The notes below the pieces were generated by a model. That model searched no databases, was not told the DNA's origin, and saw nothing but the letters and a program-made list of their open reading frames with translations. 64,000 nt of DNA from an uncultured Clostridia bacterium (GTDB lineage: Bacteria > Bacillota > Clostridia > Christensenellales > UBA1242), in the NCBI GenBank assembly GCA_944377165.1, contig CALWEJ010000002.1:69764-133763 (forward strand), given 5' to 3'. Made by a program: the position numbers and the translations under genes. Within the stretch, counting starts at the first letter, position 1. Every line of letters starts with the position of its first letter. Below, piece by piece: positions 55,847 to 59,137 of this stretch.

Positions 55847-56222
55847 AAATACTCCTTTTAATAATTATAATAAAATAATTTATTTTCGTCAATACAGTTT
55901 AATACCATTATTCAATATTAACAGTAAATATGTATATATTTTATTATAATATTATAAAATTATAATTTTTTAATATAAAAATGTATTTTTTATTATATTT
56001 TTATCATATTTTTTAATTATTTTTTTAAAAATAATAAAATTAATGAAAAAAAATAAAAAATAAAATTAAATTATACCATTAAAATTATAAAAAAAATAAT
56101 ATAAAAAATTTTTAAAAAATTATAAAAAATATTTAAAAATTATTAGTAATTAATAATTATTTGTGTTATAATAACATTGTAAATATTTGTCGTATCTAAG
56201 TTTTTAGATAAAAGGGGATTAT

Positions 56223-58787
56223 ATGAACATTTTCAATGAAATTGATAGATTCTTTAGTTCACTATATGGTTATTTAACACTTAACGATTCATTCTTAATA
56301 TTTTTAGGAGTGTTTTTGTTCGTCATTTTAGTGACTATTATTTCAACATCAAAATCATACGAAGCAAAATTAATAAAAACAATTGATATGTTTAATAATT
56401 ATTTCATATCTAATCCGCAAATTAATGAGGCTAACTTAGTTTCGTTTAATAATCGTATGAAAATGAGCAAAGTCCCTAAACATTTGCGTAAACAATGGCA
56501 ACAATTTGTTCTTTATCGTGACCATCCAGCAAGTTATTATATGTCATTTGATATATGTGTTTCTTCTCCGATAAAAAACAGTACATTTAAACGCGATATT
56601 ACAACAATGAATATTATCGCATACATATTAGCAATCGTCAGTTTCTTATTTAATCTTTATTCTGTAATGGCTACCGACCTTGTTTCAGTATTACAACAAA
56701 CATTGCTATGTCCTATATTCATATTAGTATTAAATTATATTGTCACAATTTTCTTAGATATTCGTCATAATGCTATTGTAAGTGACCTAAATCAAAACTA
56801 TCAATATTTTGAAGTTAATATGGATAAGGCTACTCAAACTTTGCCTGAATATGTTGACTATGAAGTCCTATTTGACCGAAATGAAATTAAGCGCGGAATT
56901 CCAATACTTTACTCGTATTTACAAAGACGTGCCGAAGAAGAGAAGAAAGAATTGGAGCGCGCACGTCTGCGCAATGTAGAACACGAGAAATTTAATTTCG
57001 ACGAAGCTGGTGTCGAAAGTTCGCTAGTACTAGAACGTGCAATGCAGGAAGCGGAAAGTTATATTGCAGAACGTAAAAAGTTTATGCAAGATATGGAACA
57101 AGTAAATAACGATATAACGCAAGAAGAAATGAACTTCCGTGAAATTACTAAAGAATATCAAAGACAAATGCAAGTCAGCAAAGAGTCCTTTGAGAACTTT
57201 AAGACTCAACTTAATGAGGCAGCTAGTGCTATCGAAGCAAACTATTTGAAAAAGCAACAACAACAAGAACTTGATAGACAACGAAACTTGGAAAGAGATT
57301 ATGATACGGCTACCGATAGACATAAGAAAGTATTGGAAGGTTATCAAGAAGAACTTACCGCAATTGAAAACGACATTAAAGCGGTAAGGACTAACCTTGA
57401 AAAAGGTATGATGAGCGAATTCGACACATATAGCTCTAAAGTATATAAAGCTGCTGTTAAACAGGCTGAAGAATCTCAAAGCAAGAAAGTTAAAGGTCTT
57501 CAAGACAAAATCAAAGAATTGGAAACAAAACTTGCTAATGCGGATAGTGAATTATCTAATATAAAATCACAACAACCAAATCAGCAACAAGATAATCAAA
57601 CCACAGATAATGGACAAGTTGATAAGCAAGTTGCAGAGCAAGTTCAGCCAGTTATAAATAATGAAAGTCAAGAATATTATAATCCTGAAGATGGTCAAGC
57701 AGAAACTGCAGAAGTTGAAAATACTCAAGATAATAATTCAGAAAACTCCTACAACAATAGTTTAGATGATTCTCAAGTTGAAAATAACGGTTATCAAGAA
57801 GAAAATTATGATACTAAACAAGAGCTAGAGAGTACTGAGAACGAACAAAATGAATATTTGTCGCAAAATGACAATGAACAACCTTTTACCTTCAATTATC
57901 TAGACGAAGATAATCAATCTGAACAACCTACAAGTGAAGACGATACAATGTCTTTAGAAGAAGGGCAGGACGATAATAATGAGGGAATAGCAAACGAAAC
58001 AAATAATTTAGATAATAACGAACCTATTGCAAAAGATGGGGAAGCAATAGGCGAGCCATTCGACACTGTTCAAAGTGAAAGCATTAATCAAAAGAAAAGA
58101 CCGGGCAGACCAAGAAAAGAAAAGGTAGAGAAAGAACATCGCCCAGTAGGTCGCCCTAAGAAAGTTGTTTCAGAAGAAGTGACTAGCGAAAAGAGAAAAG
58201 TCGGCAGACCTAAAAAAGAAACAAACGTAGATGCTTCAAGTGAAACAGAGAAAAAGAGGGTTGGACGACCTAGGAAAGAAACAAACTTAGCCGATGAGAG
58301 CACAACGGAAAAGAAGAAAGTCGGCAGACCTAAAAAAGTCGTAGATGAAAATGCAGAAGCAAATCTTCCAAAACGCGGACGTGGTCGTCCGAAAAAGGTT
58401 ATAGAAAATCCTCAAGAAAGTATAGAAGAATATGACGTTAAACCTACGATAGATTCGAGTGTAGAACCAACGGTTAATGAAGTTGATAATCAACTAGAAG
58501 CTGAAAATCAAGTTGAAACACAATCGGATTTAGACGAAAACAAGGCTAAAGAACCTACAGTAAAAAAGAGGGGAAGACCAAAAAAAGTTGTAGAGAATAC
58601 TGAAGCCGAACCTGTAAAAGAGAATGTAGAAATTCCTAATGAGGAAGAAGGCGACAACGTAGAAGATATTGACGCATATTTAAAGAAAATAGACGAACAA
58701 ATTGCTGAAGAAAATGCAAAAATCGCGGAATCTGAAAAGCAATTAGAGAAGAAATCTAGAATATCGCGTAGAACGACTAAAAAATAA
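56223..58787 (+). CDS. membrane-anchored coiled-coil protein with seven C-terminal AT-hook motifs
   Basis: About 3 N-terminal TM helices, long coiled coil, acidic Q/N/E/D-rich linker. Then RPGRPRKE, PVGRPKKV, KVGRPKKE, RVGRPRKE, KVGRPKKV, RGRGRPKKV and KRGRPKKV (DNA 58090-58590). Confidence 0.8.
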   Translation: MNIFNEIDRFFSSLYGYLTLNDSFLIFLGVFLFVILVTIISTSKSYEAKLIKTIDMFNNYFISNPQINEANLVSFNNRMKMSKVPKHLRKQWQQFVLYRDHPASYYMSFDICVSSPIKNSTFKRDITTMNIIAYILAIVSFLFNLYSVMATDLVSVLQQTLLCPIFILVLNYIVTIFLDIRHNAIVSDLNQNYQYFEVNMDKATQTLPEYVDYEVLFDRNEIKRGIPILYSYLQRRAEEEKKELERARLRNVEHEKFNFDEAGVESSLVLERAMQEAESYIAERKKFMQDMEQVNNDITQEEMNFREITKEYQRQMQVSKESFENFKTQLNEAASAIEANYLKKQQQQELDRQRNLERDYDTATDRHKKVLEGYQEELTAIENDIKAVRTNLEKGMMSEFDTYSSKVYKAAVKQAEESQSKKVKGLQDKIKELETKLANADSELSNIKSQQPNQQQDNQTTDNGQVDKQVAEQVQPVINNESQEYYNPEDGQAETAEVENTQDNNSENSYNNSLDDSQVENNGYQEENYDTKQELESTENEQNEYLSQNDNEQPFTFNYLDEDNQSEQPTSEDDTMSLEEGQDDNNEGIANETNNLDNNEPIAKDGEAIGEPFDTVQSESINQKKRPGRPRKEKVEKEHRPVGRPKKVVSEEVTSEKRKVGRPKKETNVDASSETEKKRVGRPRKETNLADESTTEKKKVGRPKKVVDENAEANLPKRGRGRPKKVIENPQESIEEYDVKPTIDSSVEPTVNEVDNQLEAENQVETQSDLDENKAKEPTVKKRGRPKKVVENTEAEPVKENVEIPNEEEGDNVEDIDAYLKKIDEQIAEENAKIAESEKQLEKKSRISRRTTKK

Positions 58788-58815
58788 AAAGACGGATACT
58801 AATCCGTCTTTTTTA
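58788..58815. terminator. bidirectional terminator
   Basis: AGACGGA (58790-58796) / TCCGTCT (58803-58809), flanked by A- and T-runs, between convergent genes. Confidence 0.8.
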
Positions 58816-58853
58816 AATAGGCATTTAATATTTAACTAGAAATAATAATTAAT

Positions 58854-59039
58854 TTATTTATTTAAAGCTTTTAGTAATTCATTCACATCTATTTGATGGA
58901 CATAACAAGCTTCTTCTAATGTCTCACCTTGTGCAGAAGGACAATATATGCAGTGGAAACCAAAACTCGTTAGAATTTCTTCTGCTTTTTTATGATTTTG
59001 TAATACATAACTAATTAAATCTGTAGATTTAAATTTCAT
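58854..59039 (-). CDS. DUF1858-type redox-disulfide small protein
   Basis: From MKFKSTD (ATG at 59039). FGFHCIYCPSAQGETLEEAC...IDVNELLKALN is typical of hybrid-cluster-associated DUF1858 proteins. Confidence 0.65.
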   Translation of the reverse strand: MKFKSTDLISYVLQNHKKAEEILTSFGFHCIYCPSAQGETLEEACYVHQIDVNELLKALNK

Positions 59040-59137
59040 AATACCTCCAAAATTGCAAATACTAAAATTGCAATACATTAAAAAATTATATACTCCACTT
59101 TTAGATTAGTCAAGAAAATATAACTATAAAACATTTC

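What the first reader, a model, noticed from the sequence alone, without database searches (positions are those of the whole stretch)
56223..58787. Membrane-anchored coiled-coil protein ending in seven eukaryote-style AT-hooks
After about 3 TM helices and a ~250-aa coiled coil, the C-terminal ~170 aa contain seven (K/R)x(G)RP(K/R)K(E/V) motifs spaced about 20-40 aa apart. These include the textbook PKRGRGRPKKV. AT-hooks bind the minor groove of A/T tracts. This genome has long intergenic spacers that appear to be about 90% A+T, including the 375 bp directly upstream of this gene. A protein that tethers AT-rich DNA to the membrane could serve chromosome or forespore DNA anchoring, nucleoid organisation, or capture of incoming DNA. 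At the DNA level the hooks form ~60-bp quasi-repeats (58190-58340), suggesting expansion by duplication.
Basis: partly seen in the sequence, partly recalled or inferred. Interest (0 to 1): 0.6.

Follow-up and report, generated by a model that had tools for sequence, protein, structure and literature searches.

The report
Membrane protein with AT-hook DNA tail
A gut bacterium with a genome of about 1 Mb encodes an undescribed three-pass membrane protein whose long cytoplasmic arm ends in seven AT-hook DNA-binding motifs, so it probably holds the very A/T-rich chromosome against the cell membrane, a design not reported in bacteria.

Summary
ORF 56223-58787 encodes 854 aa, built in five parts:
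- three TM helices
- a conserved helical stalk of about 220 aa
- a 163-aa acidic disordered linker (net charge -42)
- seven GRP(K/R) AT-hooks (Pfam AT_hook 30.2 bits against a cut-off of 17.4)
- a conserved C-terminal helix

The hooks are conserved in orthologues, at 2-11 per protein. The positive-inside rule places them in the cytoplasm.

- **Anchor fold.** The anchor is predicted to fold like ZorA/TolQ/ExbB motor subunits (TM-score 0.54-0.56). It has no sequence match to them, and no MotB/ExbD-type partner was detected in the genome. I read this as a shared fold only.
- **Tail type.** In sister genera the hooks are replaced by lysine-rich, histone-H1-like tails, the same swap known from myxobacterial CarD.
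- **Short forms.** Other families of the order carry forms of 260-480 aa without a basic tail.
- **Gene context.** Outside Candidatus Onthoplasma the gene sits directly after addB-addA. It always keeps its own promoter, TTAGTA-N18-TATAAT/TATACT preceded by TGTGT, which occurs once in this genome.

My best reading is a nucleoid-to-membrane tether. This is inferred and untested.

The scan has reported this family at least ten times on other genomes, with the same ZorA-like and addBA reading. I found no paper describing it.

The parts
56143..56172 (+). Promoter: -35-like TTAGTA (56143-56148), 18-nt spacer, extended -10 TGT-TATAAT (56164-56172)
   Evidence: Read from the sequence. This combination occurs once in the 1.02-Mb genome, whereas TGnTATAAT alone occurs 260 times. 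It is conserved upstream of nearly all orthologues across genera, as TGTGTTATAAT in Onthoplasma and TGTGTTATACT elsewhere. That it functions as a promoter is inferred.
56212..56217 (+). Shine-Dalgarno AAGGGG, 5 nt before the ATG
   Evidence: A GGGG or GGAG motif is conserved at the same place in the orthologous loci.
56223..56918 (+). N-terminal membrane domain, aa 1-232: outside-facing N-terminal helix, TM1 (aa 23-41), 87-aa basic cytoplasmic loop with the PKxLxxxWQQ(F/Y)(V/I)L(Y/F)R motif, and the TM2-TM3 hairpin (aa 129-180) whose last helix extends into the cytoplasm
   Evidence: Hydropathy and charge. AlphaFold2 gives pLDDT 85 and pTM 0.70. Foldseek top hits are ZorA (TM-score 0.54-0.56), TolQ and ExbB. 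No Pfam, NCBIfam, PADLOC or PDB sequence hit.
56919..57587 (+). Helical stalk, aa 233-455. Residues 233-410 are very strongly conserved.
   Evidence: AlphaFold2 helices cover aa 227-449. Mean column conservation is 0.86 for aa 233-410 and 0.93 for aa 181-232, against 0.62 for TM2. Many residues are invariant.
57588..58076 (+). Acidic, Q/N/E/D-rich disordered linker, aa 456-618, net charge -42
   Evidence: Composition. The sequence is not conserved (0.27), but an acidic block precedes the basic block in 105 of 112 full-length family representatives.
58077..58607 (+). AT-hook array, aa 619-795: seven GRP(K/R) cores, 45 K+R. It contains the 60-nt quasi-repeat at 58188-58338.
58608..58787 (+). Conserved C-terminal helix, aa 796-854 (DIDAYLKKIDEQIAEENAK...), and TAA stop
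   Evidence: D815, D817, L820, I823, I827, A828, E830, A832, K833 and L841 are conserved at 90% or more. Related (I/L)NxxLxxLL-type C-terminal helices appear in long and short relatives. The motif comparison was by eye.
58786..58819 (+). Intrinsic terminator: 12-bp stem AAAAAGACGGAT/ATCCGTCTTTTT followed by a T-run. It is shared with the convergent DUF1858 gene.
   Evidence: Folding energy is -15.2 kcal/mol, z = -5.55, and 0 of 200 shuffles fold as well.

Best explanation
The gene encodes a core, chromosomally fixed integral membrane protein of a family of uncultured gut Christensenellales with genomes of about 1 Mb (the Candidatus Onthoplasma group). Its likely role is to tether A/T-rich DNA, meaning the nucleoid, to the cytoplasmic face of the membrane.

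**Proposed mechanism (all steps inferred unless marked)**
1. A three-TM base with an ExbB/TolQ/ZorA-type fold sits in the membrane with the N-terminus outside and the C-terminus inside. Sequence statistics and structure prediction support this.
2. The third TM helix continues into a strongly conserved helical stalk of about 270 aa (aa 181-450). The stalk probably forms an oligomeric coiled coil, as the ZorA tail does, and projects tens of nanometres into the cytoplasm.
3. A 163-aa acidic disordered spacer follows. It may keep the basic tail off the anionic membrane, or mask it as the acidic regions of HMGA and CarD are thought to do.
4. Seven AT-hooks per chain insert into the minor groove of A/T tracts. 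These tracts are most abundant in the intergenic spacers, which are 90-94% A+T. Each hook binds weakly, so avidity would come from the array and from oligomerisation.
5. A conserved C-terminal helix probably makes a protein contact.

The gene is a single transcription unit with a conserved sigma-A-type promoter, so I expect vegetative expression. The biological outcome could be nucleoid organisation, segregation, exclusion of the division site in the manner of Noc, or holding DNA near membrane-associated repair. That outcome is not resolved.
For: - **Architecture and hooks.**. The hook array is far beyond chance: 7 observed against a maximum of 1 in 20,000 shuffles.
- **Topology.** K+R counts follow the positive-inside rule in 24 of 24 sequences.
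- **Conservation.** At least 355 homologues in protein clusters, 145 GTDB species, and 310 clusters at 50% identity among 1.84 billion proteins. The G, R, P and fifth-position K of three hooks are invariant and those of three more are nearly invariant.
- **Swap of tail type.** The basic tail is exchanged between AT-hooks and K/A/P/T-rich, histone-H1-like repeats in sister genera, while the acidic-then-basic order is kept in 105 of 112 representatives. The same swap is functionally equivalent for DNA binding in CarD (PMC2919716, which cites Garcia-Heras 2009).
- **Targets are abundant.** The genome is 31.4% G+C, has 321 stretches of at least 100 nt with at most 10% G+C, and has 8.9 A/T runs of at least 10 nt per kb.
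- **Core gene.** It is single-copy, found in 19 of 20 and 21 of 25 sampled genomes of its family, has stable synteny, and gives no PADLOC hit.
- **Own transcription unit.** Promoter, Shine-Dalgarno site and terminator are all present.
- **A second case in the same genome.** Another TM protein, next to an HU gene, ends in a single AT-hook.
- **Rarity.** Paired-hook arrays are at background level elsewhere in Bacillota: 3 of 400 genomes matched, and at least one of those matches looks like chance.
Against: - There is no experimental evidence of DNA binding, localisation or phenotype.
- Five of the seven hooks lack the first arginine of the RGRP core and may bind weakly.
- AT-hook-like motifs can also bind RNA (own knowledge).
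- Short relatives (260-480 aa) in other families of the order, and in four genera of this family, have no basic tail or only one hook. DNA binding therefore cannot be the ancestral function of the membrane domain.
- About 15 of 62 hook-less long representatives have no clearly basic window.
- Oligomerisation is inferred only from fold resemblance. The heptad/hendecad periodicity test was inconclusive.
Confidence: 0.55

Rival explanations
1. The protein is an accessory of the AddAB double-strand-break repair machine. The membrane domain would be the ancestral partner of AddAB, and in the small-genome lineage it gained a DNA-binding tail that holds broken or replicating DNA at the membrane for end processing.
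For: - The gene lies directly downstream of addB-addA on the same strand in all 25 non-Onthoplasma species loci where the upstream side is visible.
- The same holds in L002-L012.
- It also holds in about 15 of 20 loci from other families of the order, short forms included, with gaps of 32-300 bp.
Against: - Even beside addA the gene carries its own conserved promoter.
- In Onthoplasma it has moved to the alr / Zn-peptidase / ltaS neighbourhood, while addBA stays on another contig. It shows no sign of decay there.
- No physical or regulatory link is shown, and adjacency alone may be historical.
Confidence: 0.2
2. The protein is a sporulation-specific chromosome anchor, a functional analogue of Bacillus RacA. 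It would fix the chromosome to the membrane or pole during asymmetric division and forespore packaging.
For: - The genome encodes Spo0A (143 bits) and SpoIVA (346 bits) despite its 1.02 Mb.
- SpoIVA is found in 24 of 25 sampled genomes of the family.
- DivIVA gives only a sub-threshold match.
- RacA is not known in Clostridia (own knowledge).
Against: - The conserved promoter is a sigma-A-type extended -10, not a recognisable sigma-F/E/G/K type. This is inference from consensus only.
- AT-hooks have low sequence specificity and their targets are spread over the whole genome. That gives no origin-proximal addressing of the kind RacA has.
- Tail-less short forms occur in some genomes that carry SpoIVA.
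Confidence: 0.1
3. The protein is a ZorA-like subunit of an ion-driven 5:2 motor or sensor, for example a Zorya-like defence or envelope-sensing device, whose tail signals to DNA or to nucleases such as AddAB.
For: - Foldseek puts ZorA first for both models (probability 1.00; TM-score 0.54-0.56 over 232 columns), followed by TolQ, ExbB and MotA.
- It has the same layout as ZorA: three TM helices and then a long helical tail. ZorA forms a pentameric tail of about 70 nm that communicates with DNA-binding ZorC and the nuclease ZorD (PMC11946911).
- The gene is adjacent to a helicase-nuclease in relatives.
Against: - Foldseek E-values are only 0.01-0.08.
- There is no sequence-level signal from Pfam MotA_ExbB or the PADLOC ZorA models, from hhalign against Clostridia MotA (probability below 1%), or from a profile search of PDB sequences.
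- The genome has no MotA_ExbB, no ExbD, and only a sub-threshold 14-bit MotB_plug match.
- No small TM gene is adjacent in any locus inspected.
- TM2 and the outside loop are the least conserved parts of the domain, whereas in stators the TM hairpin is the conserved core (own knowledge).
- The gene is core and syntenic, not on a defence island.
Confidence: 0.06
4. The basic tail does not bind the chromosome. It would bind another polyanion such as RNA, ribosomes or polyphosphate, or the acidic and basic blocks would drive a membrane-attached condensate.
For: - The tail sits in a long disordered polyampholyte: net -42, then 45 K+R in 177 aa.
- Hook sequence and number drift quickly and can be replaced by generic lysine-rich repeats.
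- Extended AT-hooks are reported to bind RNA (own knowledge).
Against: - The GRP cores are conserved much more strictly than their surroundings, which argues for the specific minor-groove contact.
- Both AT-hooks and H1-like repeats are established DNA binders and are interchangeable for DNA binding in CarD (PMC2919716).
Confidence: 0.09

Closest known systems
ZorA, the A subunit of the ZorA5B2 motor of the Zorya anti-phage system (PDB 8qyd, 8qyy, 8qyk, 8vvn; PMC11946911)
   Same: - It is the best structural match to the predicted N-terminal domain (TM-score 0.54-0.56).
- It has the same order of parts: TM1, a cytoplasmic helical insert, a TM2-TM3 hairpin, then a very long helical cytoplasmic tail.
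- The ZorA tail also ends in a link to DNA, through the separate DNA-binding protein ZorC.
   Different: - There is no detectable sequence similarity.
- There is no ZorB partner and no ZorC or ZorD.
- The gene is a core gene, not on a defence island.
- The TM hairpin is poorly conserved.
- DNA binding is built into the same chain.
ExbB / TolQ / MotA stator A subunits (Pfam PF01618)
   Same: Three-TM topology, with the N-terminus outside, a large cytoplasmic insert after TM1, and a last TM helix that extends deep into the cytoplasm. Fold hits are 9ddm, 9kpz and 5sv0.
   Different: - There is no PF01618 match in the protein or anywhere in the genome.
- There is no ExbD/TolR/MotB partner.
- TM-scores are only 0.3-0.46.
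CarD of Myxococcus xanthus and CarD(Ad) of Anaeromyxobacter (PMC2919716)
   Same: - It is a bacterial protein with an HMGA-like C-terminal module, a highly acidic region next to several AT-hooks.
- In a related species the AT-hook module is replaced by a histone-H1-like lysine-rich domain with no loss of function. The same alternation is seen here between genera.
   Different: - CarD is soluble. Its N-terminal domain binds RNA polymerase and CarG, and it acts as a transcription factor.
- The two proteins share no homology outside the motif.
- This protein has 7 hooks, and relatives have up to 11, against 4 in CarD.
Noc (Bacillus subtilis) and RicO (Staphylococcus aureus; bioRxiv 10.64898/2026.03.06.710092)
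   Same: They are Firmicute proteins that bridge chromosomal DNA and the cytoplasmic membrane, which is the function proposed here.
   Different: - Both bind specific sites through folded domains and attach to the membrane peripherally through an amphipathic helix.
- This protein is an integral three-TM protein with a long stalk and low-specificity minor-groove hooks.
- There is no homology.
MFP1 and PEND of plant chloroplasts (review PMC4154389)
   Same: [quoted passage not shown]
- PEND anchors nucleoids to the envelope.
   Different: - They are eukaryote-encoded organelle proteins with unrelated sequences.
- PEND binds DNA through a bZIP domain.
- Neither has an AT-hook array or a ZorA-like base.
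Eukaryotic HMGA proteins (Pfam AT_hook PF02178)
   Same: They share the motif, including the textbook PKRGRGRPKK, and the neighbouring acidic region.
   Different: HMGA proteins are small, soluble nuclear proteins with 3 hooks. Here five of the seven hooks have V or P in place of the first Arg. Nothing suggests common descent rather than convergence of a short motif.

Membership tests
Pfam AT_hook (PF02178) motif-bearing proteins | Match to the AT_hook HMM above the gathering score | tested here: met
   30.2 bits against 17.4, with two stretches passing on their own; the best is aa 717-727.
Pfam AT_hook (PF02178) motif-bearing proteins | Canonical R-G-R-P core flanked by basic residues | tested here: inconclusive
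   Two of the seven hooks are RGRP. The other five are (P/V)GRP(K/R)K. The consensus of the orthologues is mostly RGRPKK.
Pfam AT_hook (PF02178) motif-bearing proteins | Binds the minor groove of A/T tracts | not testable with these tools
   This needs EMSA or footprinting with netropsin competition.
MotA/ExbB/TolQ/ZorA 5:2 motor A subunits | Sequence match to PF01618 or to the PADLOC ZorA models | tested here: not met
   - No hit at E <= 1 in Pfam or PADLOC, either for the protein or for 24 family members.
- hhalign against Clostridia MotA alignments gives probability below 1%.
- A profile search of PDB sequences finds none.
MotA/ExbB/TolQ/ZorA 5:2 motor A subunits | Fold: TM1, cytoplasmic helical insert, TM hairpin with a long last helix | tested here: met
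   The AlphaFold2 model has pLDDT 85 and pTM 0.70. Foldseek gives ZorA TM-score 0.54-0.56 with probability 1.00, and about 35 of the 50 listed hits belong to this superfamily. E-values are weak, at 0.01-0.08.
MotA/ExbB/TolQ/ZorA 5:2 motor A subunits | Adjacent B-subunit gene (MotB/ExbD/TolR/ZorB), a single TM helix with a conserved Asp | tested here: not met
   No such gene is next to the gene in the window or in the related loci inspected. The genome has no ExbD, and MotB_plug gives only 14 bits, below threshold.
MotA/ExbB/TolQ/ZorA 5:2 motor A subunits | The TM hairpin lining the ion path is the most conserved part | tested here: not met
   TM2 scores 0.62 and the outer loop 0.49, the least conserved parts. 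The cytoplasmic loop scores 0.84 and aa 181-232 score 0.93. Only P164 in TM3 is nearly invariant.
MotA/ExbB/TolQ/ZorA 5:2 motor A subunits | Pentameric assembly | not testable with these tools
   No multimer prediction is available. The periodicity analysis of the stalk was inconclusive.
Zorya defence system | Operon zorA-zorB plus zorC/D, zorE or zorF/G, usually in a defence island | tested here: not met
   The gene is a monocistronic unit between a Zn-peptidase gene and a DUF1858 gene. It is core and syntenic across species.
HMGA-like module as in CarD | A highly acidic region contiguous with multiple AT-hooks, replaceable by an H1-like domain | tested here: met
   A block of net charge -42 is followed by the hook array. 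The acidic-before-basic order holds in 105 of 112 representatives. H1-like tails occur in sister genera. This is a resemblance of module, not homology of the proteins.
Noc/ParB-type membrane-DNA bridges | ParB_N and HTH domains plus an N-terminal amphipathic helix | tested here: not met
   The protein has no ParB domain. The single ParB_N gene of the genome is elsewhere, at C6:68423.

The most novel reading that the evidence does not exclude
The family would be an orphan branch of the ZorA/ExbB stator superfamily that lost, or never had, its B subunit, and was turned into a static or force-bearing pentameric stalk coupling the chromosome to the membrane. It would work together with AddAB, the gene it has followed since the origin of the order. 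In the lineage with genomes of about 1 Mb, a stalk carrying 35 hooks per pentamer would replace missing nucleoid-organising systems. This would be the first case of a motor-stator fold used for chromosome anchoring, and the first integral-membrane AT-hook nucleoid protein in bacteria.
Probability: 0.12. Interest if true: 0.8.

Novelty: new variant of a known kind. Interest (0 to 1): 0.55.

Why it matters
How bacteria attach and organise their chromosome at the membrane is known for only a few model species (Noc, RacA-DivIVA, RicO). In those cases a site-specific folded DNA-binding domain pairs with a peripheral membrane helix.

This family suggests a different solution in an abundant but uncultured group of gut Clostridia with genomes of about 1 Mb. 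It is an integral membrane base with a motor-stator-like fold, a long stalk, and a multivalent low-specificity minor-groove tail matched to extremely A/T-rich intergenic DNA.

It also extends to a second, unrelated lineage the interchange of HMGA-like and H1-like modules, known so far only from myxobacterial CarD. The hypothesis can be tested with ordinary biochemistry on a tail of about 240 aa.

The persistent addB-addA linkage hints at a tie between break repair and the membrane that nobody has examined.

Tried and rejected
- **Sequence annotation of the whole protein.** NCBIfam, PADLOC and PDB sequences gave nothing beyond AT_hook.
- **Homology to MotA.** hhalign of two family alignments against Clostridia MotA and long MotA-like alignments gave probability below 1%. 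A profile search of PDB sequences gave only spurious SGBP-A and claudin hits. Homology to stators is therefore not claimed.
- **Short forms by word search.** The search for homologous proteins with the 235-aa N-terminal piece returned only fragments of long forms. The short forms came from the genome search instead.
- **First search for related loci attempt.** With the 10-row alignment it failed because no stretch was conserved enough. A narrower alignment worked.
- **Survey for AT-hooks with PF02178.** Across 300 Bacillota genomes it did not even detect the window's own gene, so it is uninformative. I replaced it with a back-translated two-hook DNA pattern.
- **Hooks versus genome composition.** I tested whether hook-bearing and H1-like forms come from genomes of different composition, using GARP/FYMINK content of the conserved part. 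The difference was trivial, 0.154 against 0.161, so I claim no such link.
- **Stalk periodicity.** Hydrophobic periodicity gave a weak 3.5 signal in the first helix and a weak 3.67 signal in the second. This is inconclusive for oligomer type.
- **Sigma-70 consensus scan.** In a 91% A+T spacer it is swamped (28 hits against 16.5 expected). I found the promoter by conservation instead.
- **Spo0A box.** A possible Spo0A box (TGTCG/TGTCA) in the Onthoplasma 5' leader was noticed by eye but is absent from the other genera, so I dropped it.


Full report
**1. The observation**

The ORF 56223-58787 (+) is real and encodes 854 aa.
- It has an AAGGGG Shine-Dalgarno site 5 nt before the ATG.
- A strong intrinsic terminator hairpin follows the TAA stop directly, at 58786-58813 (-15.2 kcal/mol, z = -5.55).
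- Seven GRP(K/R) cores start at aa 628, 643, 661, 681, 701, 721 and 784.
- Pfam AT_hook scores 30.2 bits against a cut-off of 17.4.
- In 20,000 shuffles the count never exceeded one.
- TRF confirms the 60-nt quasi-repeat at 58188-58338.
- The upstream spacer is 376 bp and 91% A+T.
- The whole 1.02-Mb, 31.4% G+C genome holds 321 stretches of at least 100 nt with at most 10% G+C.

Three small corrections apply. The first six hooks are 15-20 aa apart and the seventh is 63 aa further on. Only two hooks have the canonical RGRP core. The helical stalk is about 220 aa.

**2. Anatomy**

Hydropathy gives three TM helices at aa 23-41, 129-149 and 158-180.
- The N-terminal 22 aa are acidic, the 87-aa loop 1 carries 13 K+R, and the 8-aa loop 2 carries none.
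- The same pattern holds in all 24 diverse relatives tested: mean K+R is 0.9 in the N-terminal tail, 15 in loop 1 and 0.1 in loop 2.
- By the positive-inside rule the N-terminus is outside and everything after TM3 is cytoplasmic.

After TM3 come four parts:
- a helical stalk to about aa 450
- a 163-aa Q/N/D/E-rich linker of net charge -42
- the hook array, with 45 K+R in 177 aa
- a conserved C-terminal helix

Within the genus the most conserved parts are cytoplasmic. Column conservation is 0.84 for loop 1, 0.93 for aa 181-232 and 0.86 for aa 233-410. TM2 (0.62) and the outer loop (0.49) are the least conserved parts of the N-terminal domain. The stalk is therefore more than a spacer.

**3. The anchor**

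No Pfam, NCBIfam, PADLOC or PDB sequence match exists for aa 1-620.

AlphaFold2 with family alignments gives confident models:
- pLDDT 79 for aa 1-450
- pLDDT 85 and pTM 0.70 for aa 1-235

Foldseek against the PDB puts ZorA of the Zorya ZorA5B2 motor first both times.
- Probability is 1.00, and TM-score is 0.54-0.56 over 232 columns for the domain alone.
- TolQ, ExbB and MotA follow. About 35 of the 50 listed hits belong to that superfamily.
- E-values are only 0.01-0.08.
- ZorA is likewise a three-TM protein followed by a long pentameric helical tail of about 70 nm (PMC11946911).

The defining features of a motor subunit are not met:
- hhalign against Clostridia MotA gives probability below 1%.
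- The genome has no MotA_ExbB and no ExbD, and only a 14-bit sub-threshold MotB_plug match.
- No small TM gene is adjacent in any locus inspected.
- The TM hairpin is the least conserved part, not the most.

I therefore describe the anchor as ZorA/ExbB-like in predicted fold and layout. I do not file it as a member of that family.

**4. Distribution and evolution**
- The protein has at least 355 homologues of 680-930 aa in the clustered protein database. All of those listed carry 3-11 hooks.
- 145 GTDB species encode a relative, named Candidatus Onthoplasma, 'uncultured Christensenella' or 'Clostridia bacterium'.
- A profile of the N-terminal domain finds only 310 clusters at 50% identity among 1.84 billion proteins. 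The family is narrow.
- In the order it occurs in 93 of 401 sampled genomes, spread over many families.
- In the window's own family, whose genomes are 0.8-1.3 Mb, it occurs in 19 of 20 and 21 of 25 sampled genomes.

Outside that family the proteins are short, 260-480 aa. They have the same three-TM domain, an acidic stretch often made of PE repeats, and a C-terminal helix of the type (I/L)NxxLxxLL, but no basic tail.

Within the small-genome family the tail is highly plastic:
- AT-hook arrays of 4-10 hooks occur in seven of the sampled genera, some as near-perfect tandem repeats.
- Lysine/alanine/proline/threonine-rich, histone-H1-like repeats occur in several others, for example PAAKPAAK.
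- Four genera have short forms of 375-484 aa with one hook or none.

Of 112 full-length cluster representatives, 47 have at least 2 hooks and 62 have none. Of those 62, 31 have a 60-aa window of net charge +10 or more, and 47 have one of +6 or more. An acidic block precedes the basic block in 105 of 112.

This is the same HMGA-like to H1-like exchange that was shown to be functionally equivalent in CarD of myxobacteria (PMC2919716). It is the strongest indirect argument that the tail's job is generic DNA binding.

**5. Gene context**

In Onthoplasma the order is queH - alr - Zn-peptidase (opposite strand) - this gene - ... - ltaS-like.

In the other genera of the family the order is addB - addA - this gene - (uppP). 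This holds in 25 of 25 loci where the upstream side is visible. It also holds in about 15 of 20 loci fetched from other families of the order. In the window's genome addBA lies on another contig, so the gene has moved.

In nearly every locus the gene keeps its own promoter: ATTAGTA, a spacer, then TGTGTTATAAT (Onthoplasma) or TGTGTTATACT (others). In this genome TTAGTA-N15-19-TGnTATAAT occurs exactly once, while plain TGnTATAAT occurs 260 times. The gene is thus an independent unit, probably sigma-A dependent. Its promoter has been conserved through about 70% protein divergence, which is unexplained.

**6. Context in the cell**
- The genome has one ParB_N gene, two HU genes and only a sub-threshold DivIVA match.
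- It unexpectedly has Spo0A and SpoIVA.
- SpoIVA is found in 24 of 25 sampled genomes of the family. The vegetative-type promoter argues against a sporulation-only role.
- The only other GRP(K/R) hook in a plausible gene belongs to a 275-aa protein with a single TM helix, encoded right after the second HU gene. It ends in KHRGRPKKS.
- A back-translated two-hook pattern matched in only 3 of 400 other Bacillota genomes, no more often than its reversed control. Hook arrays are therefore a speciality of this lineage.

**7. Interpretation**

The best-supported mechanism is a membrane-to-nucleoid tether. Its parts would be a ZorA-like base, a conserved and probably oligomeric stalk, an acidic spacer, and multivalent minor-groove hooks that favour the 90-94% A+T spacers.
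- Shown by computation: architecture, conservation, topology statistics, predicted fold and synteny.
- Inferred: DNA binding, oligomeric state and physiological role.

Rivals are an AddAB-linked repair role (0.2), a sporulation anchor (0.1), a binder of another polyanion or a condensate scaffold (0.09) and a true ZorA-type motor (0.06).

**8. Novelty**

Full-text searches for bacterial membrane-anchored AT-hook proteins found nothing of this kind. The nearest functional analogues are Noc and RicO (bioRxiv 10.64898/2026.03.06.710092) and the plant plastid proteins MFP1 and PEND (PMC4154389).

This scan has already reported the same family at least ten times on other genomes, with the same ZorA-like and addBA conclusions. 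I had reached both before reading those notes.

- the H1-like tail swap
- the tail-less short forms with a shared C-terminal helix
- the unique conserved promoter
- the relocation of the gene in Onthoplasma
- the absence of any detectable B subunit in the genome
- the retained sporulation genes

Noticed in passing
G000 contig C7:51453-52277 (+), outside the window; L130:1871-2695: This is a second membrane-anchored AT-hook protein. It is 275 aa, with one N-terminal TM helix, a helical region, and an N/P/T/Q-rich disordered region, and it ends in KHRGRPKKS. It is encoded directly after the second HU gene (C7:51083-51337). It has no Pfam family.
   Followed up: partly
G000 C6:38268-38576 (Spo0A), C9:26631 and C4:67325 (extra Spo0A_C ORFs), C9:41162-41860 (SpoIVA): A 1.02-Mb genome keeps Spo0A (143 bits), two further Spo0A_C-domain ORFs and SpoIVA (346 bits). 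SpoIVA is found in 24 of 25 sampled genomes of the family, all 0.8-1.3 Mb. These would be very small genomes for endospore formers.
   Followed up: partly
window 56143-56172 and the orthologous loci L013-L092: The promoter TTAGTA-N18-TGTGTTATAAT occurs once in the genome. It is conserved across genera whose proteins are only about 30% identical, although it lies in spacers of about 88% A+T. This suggests a specific regulator or an unusually constrained promoter.
   Followed up: partly
L119, L120, L121 (other Clostridia genomes G219, G204, G245): These are MotA_ExbB-domain proteins of 479-514 aa with an ExbB-like TM part and a helical tail of about 300 aa. Two of them end in basic KKKRGRLRI and NKKRGKR. 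They may be ZorA-like proteins of Clostridia, and they are unrelated in sequence to the family studied here.
   Followed up: no
L155 (G809:C1:1704394-1704465, -): This is one of the three other Bacillota genomes among 400 that matched the two-hook pattern. It encodes GRPKKRIEEERGASAAKKRGRPKK. I did not examine the protein.
   Followed up: no
window 58786-58813: A symmetrical A5-stem-T5 hairpin serves as a bidirectional terminator between the convergent AT-hook gene and the DUF1858 gene 58854-59078 (-).
   Followed up: yes
L183 (genus g505) and L184 (genus g497): In two sister genera the hook arrays are near-perfect tandem repeats, EEKRSVGRPKK repeated and KKGPGRPKKEEVRGPGRPKKEV repeated, running to the C-terminus. 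This points to very recent expansion.
   Followed up: partly
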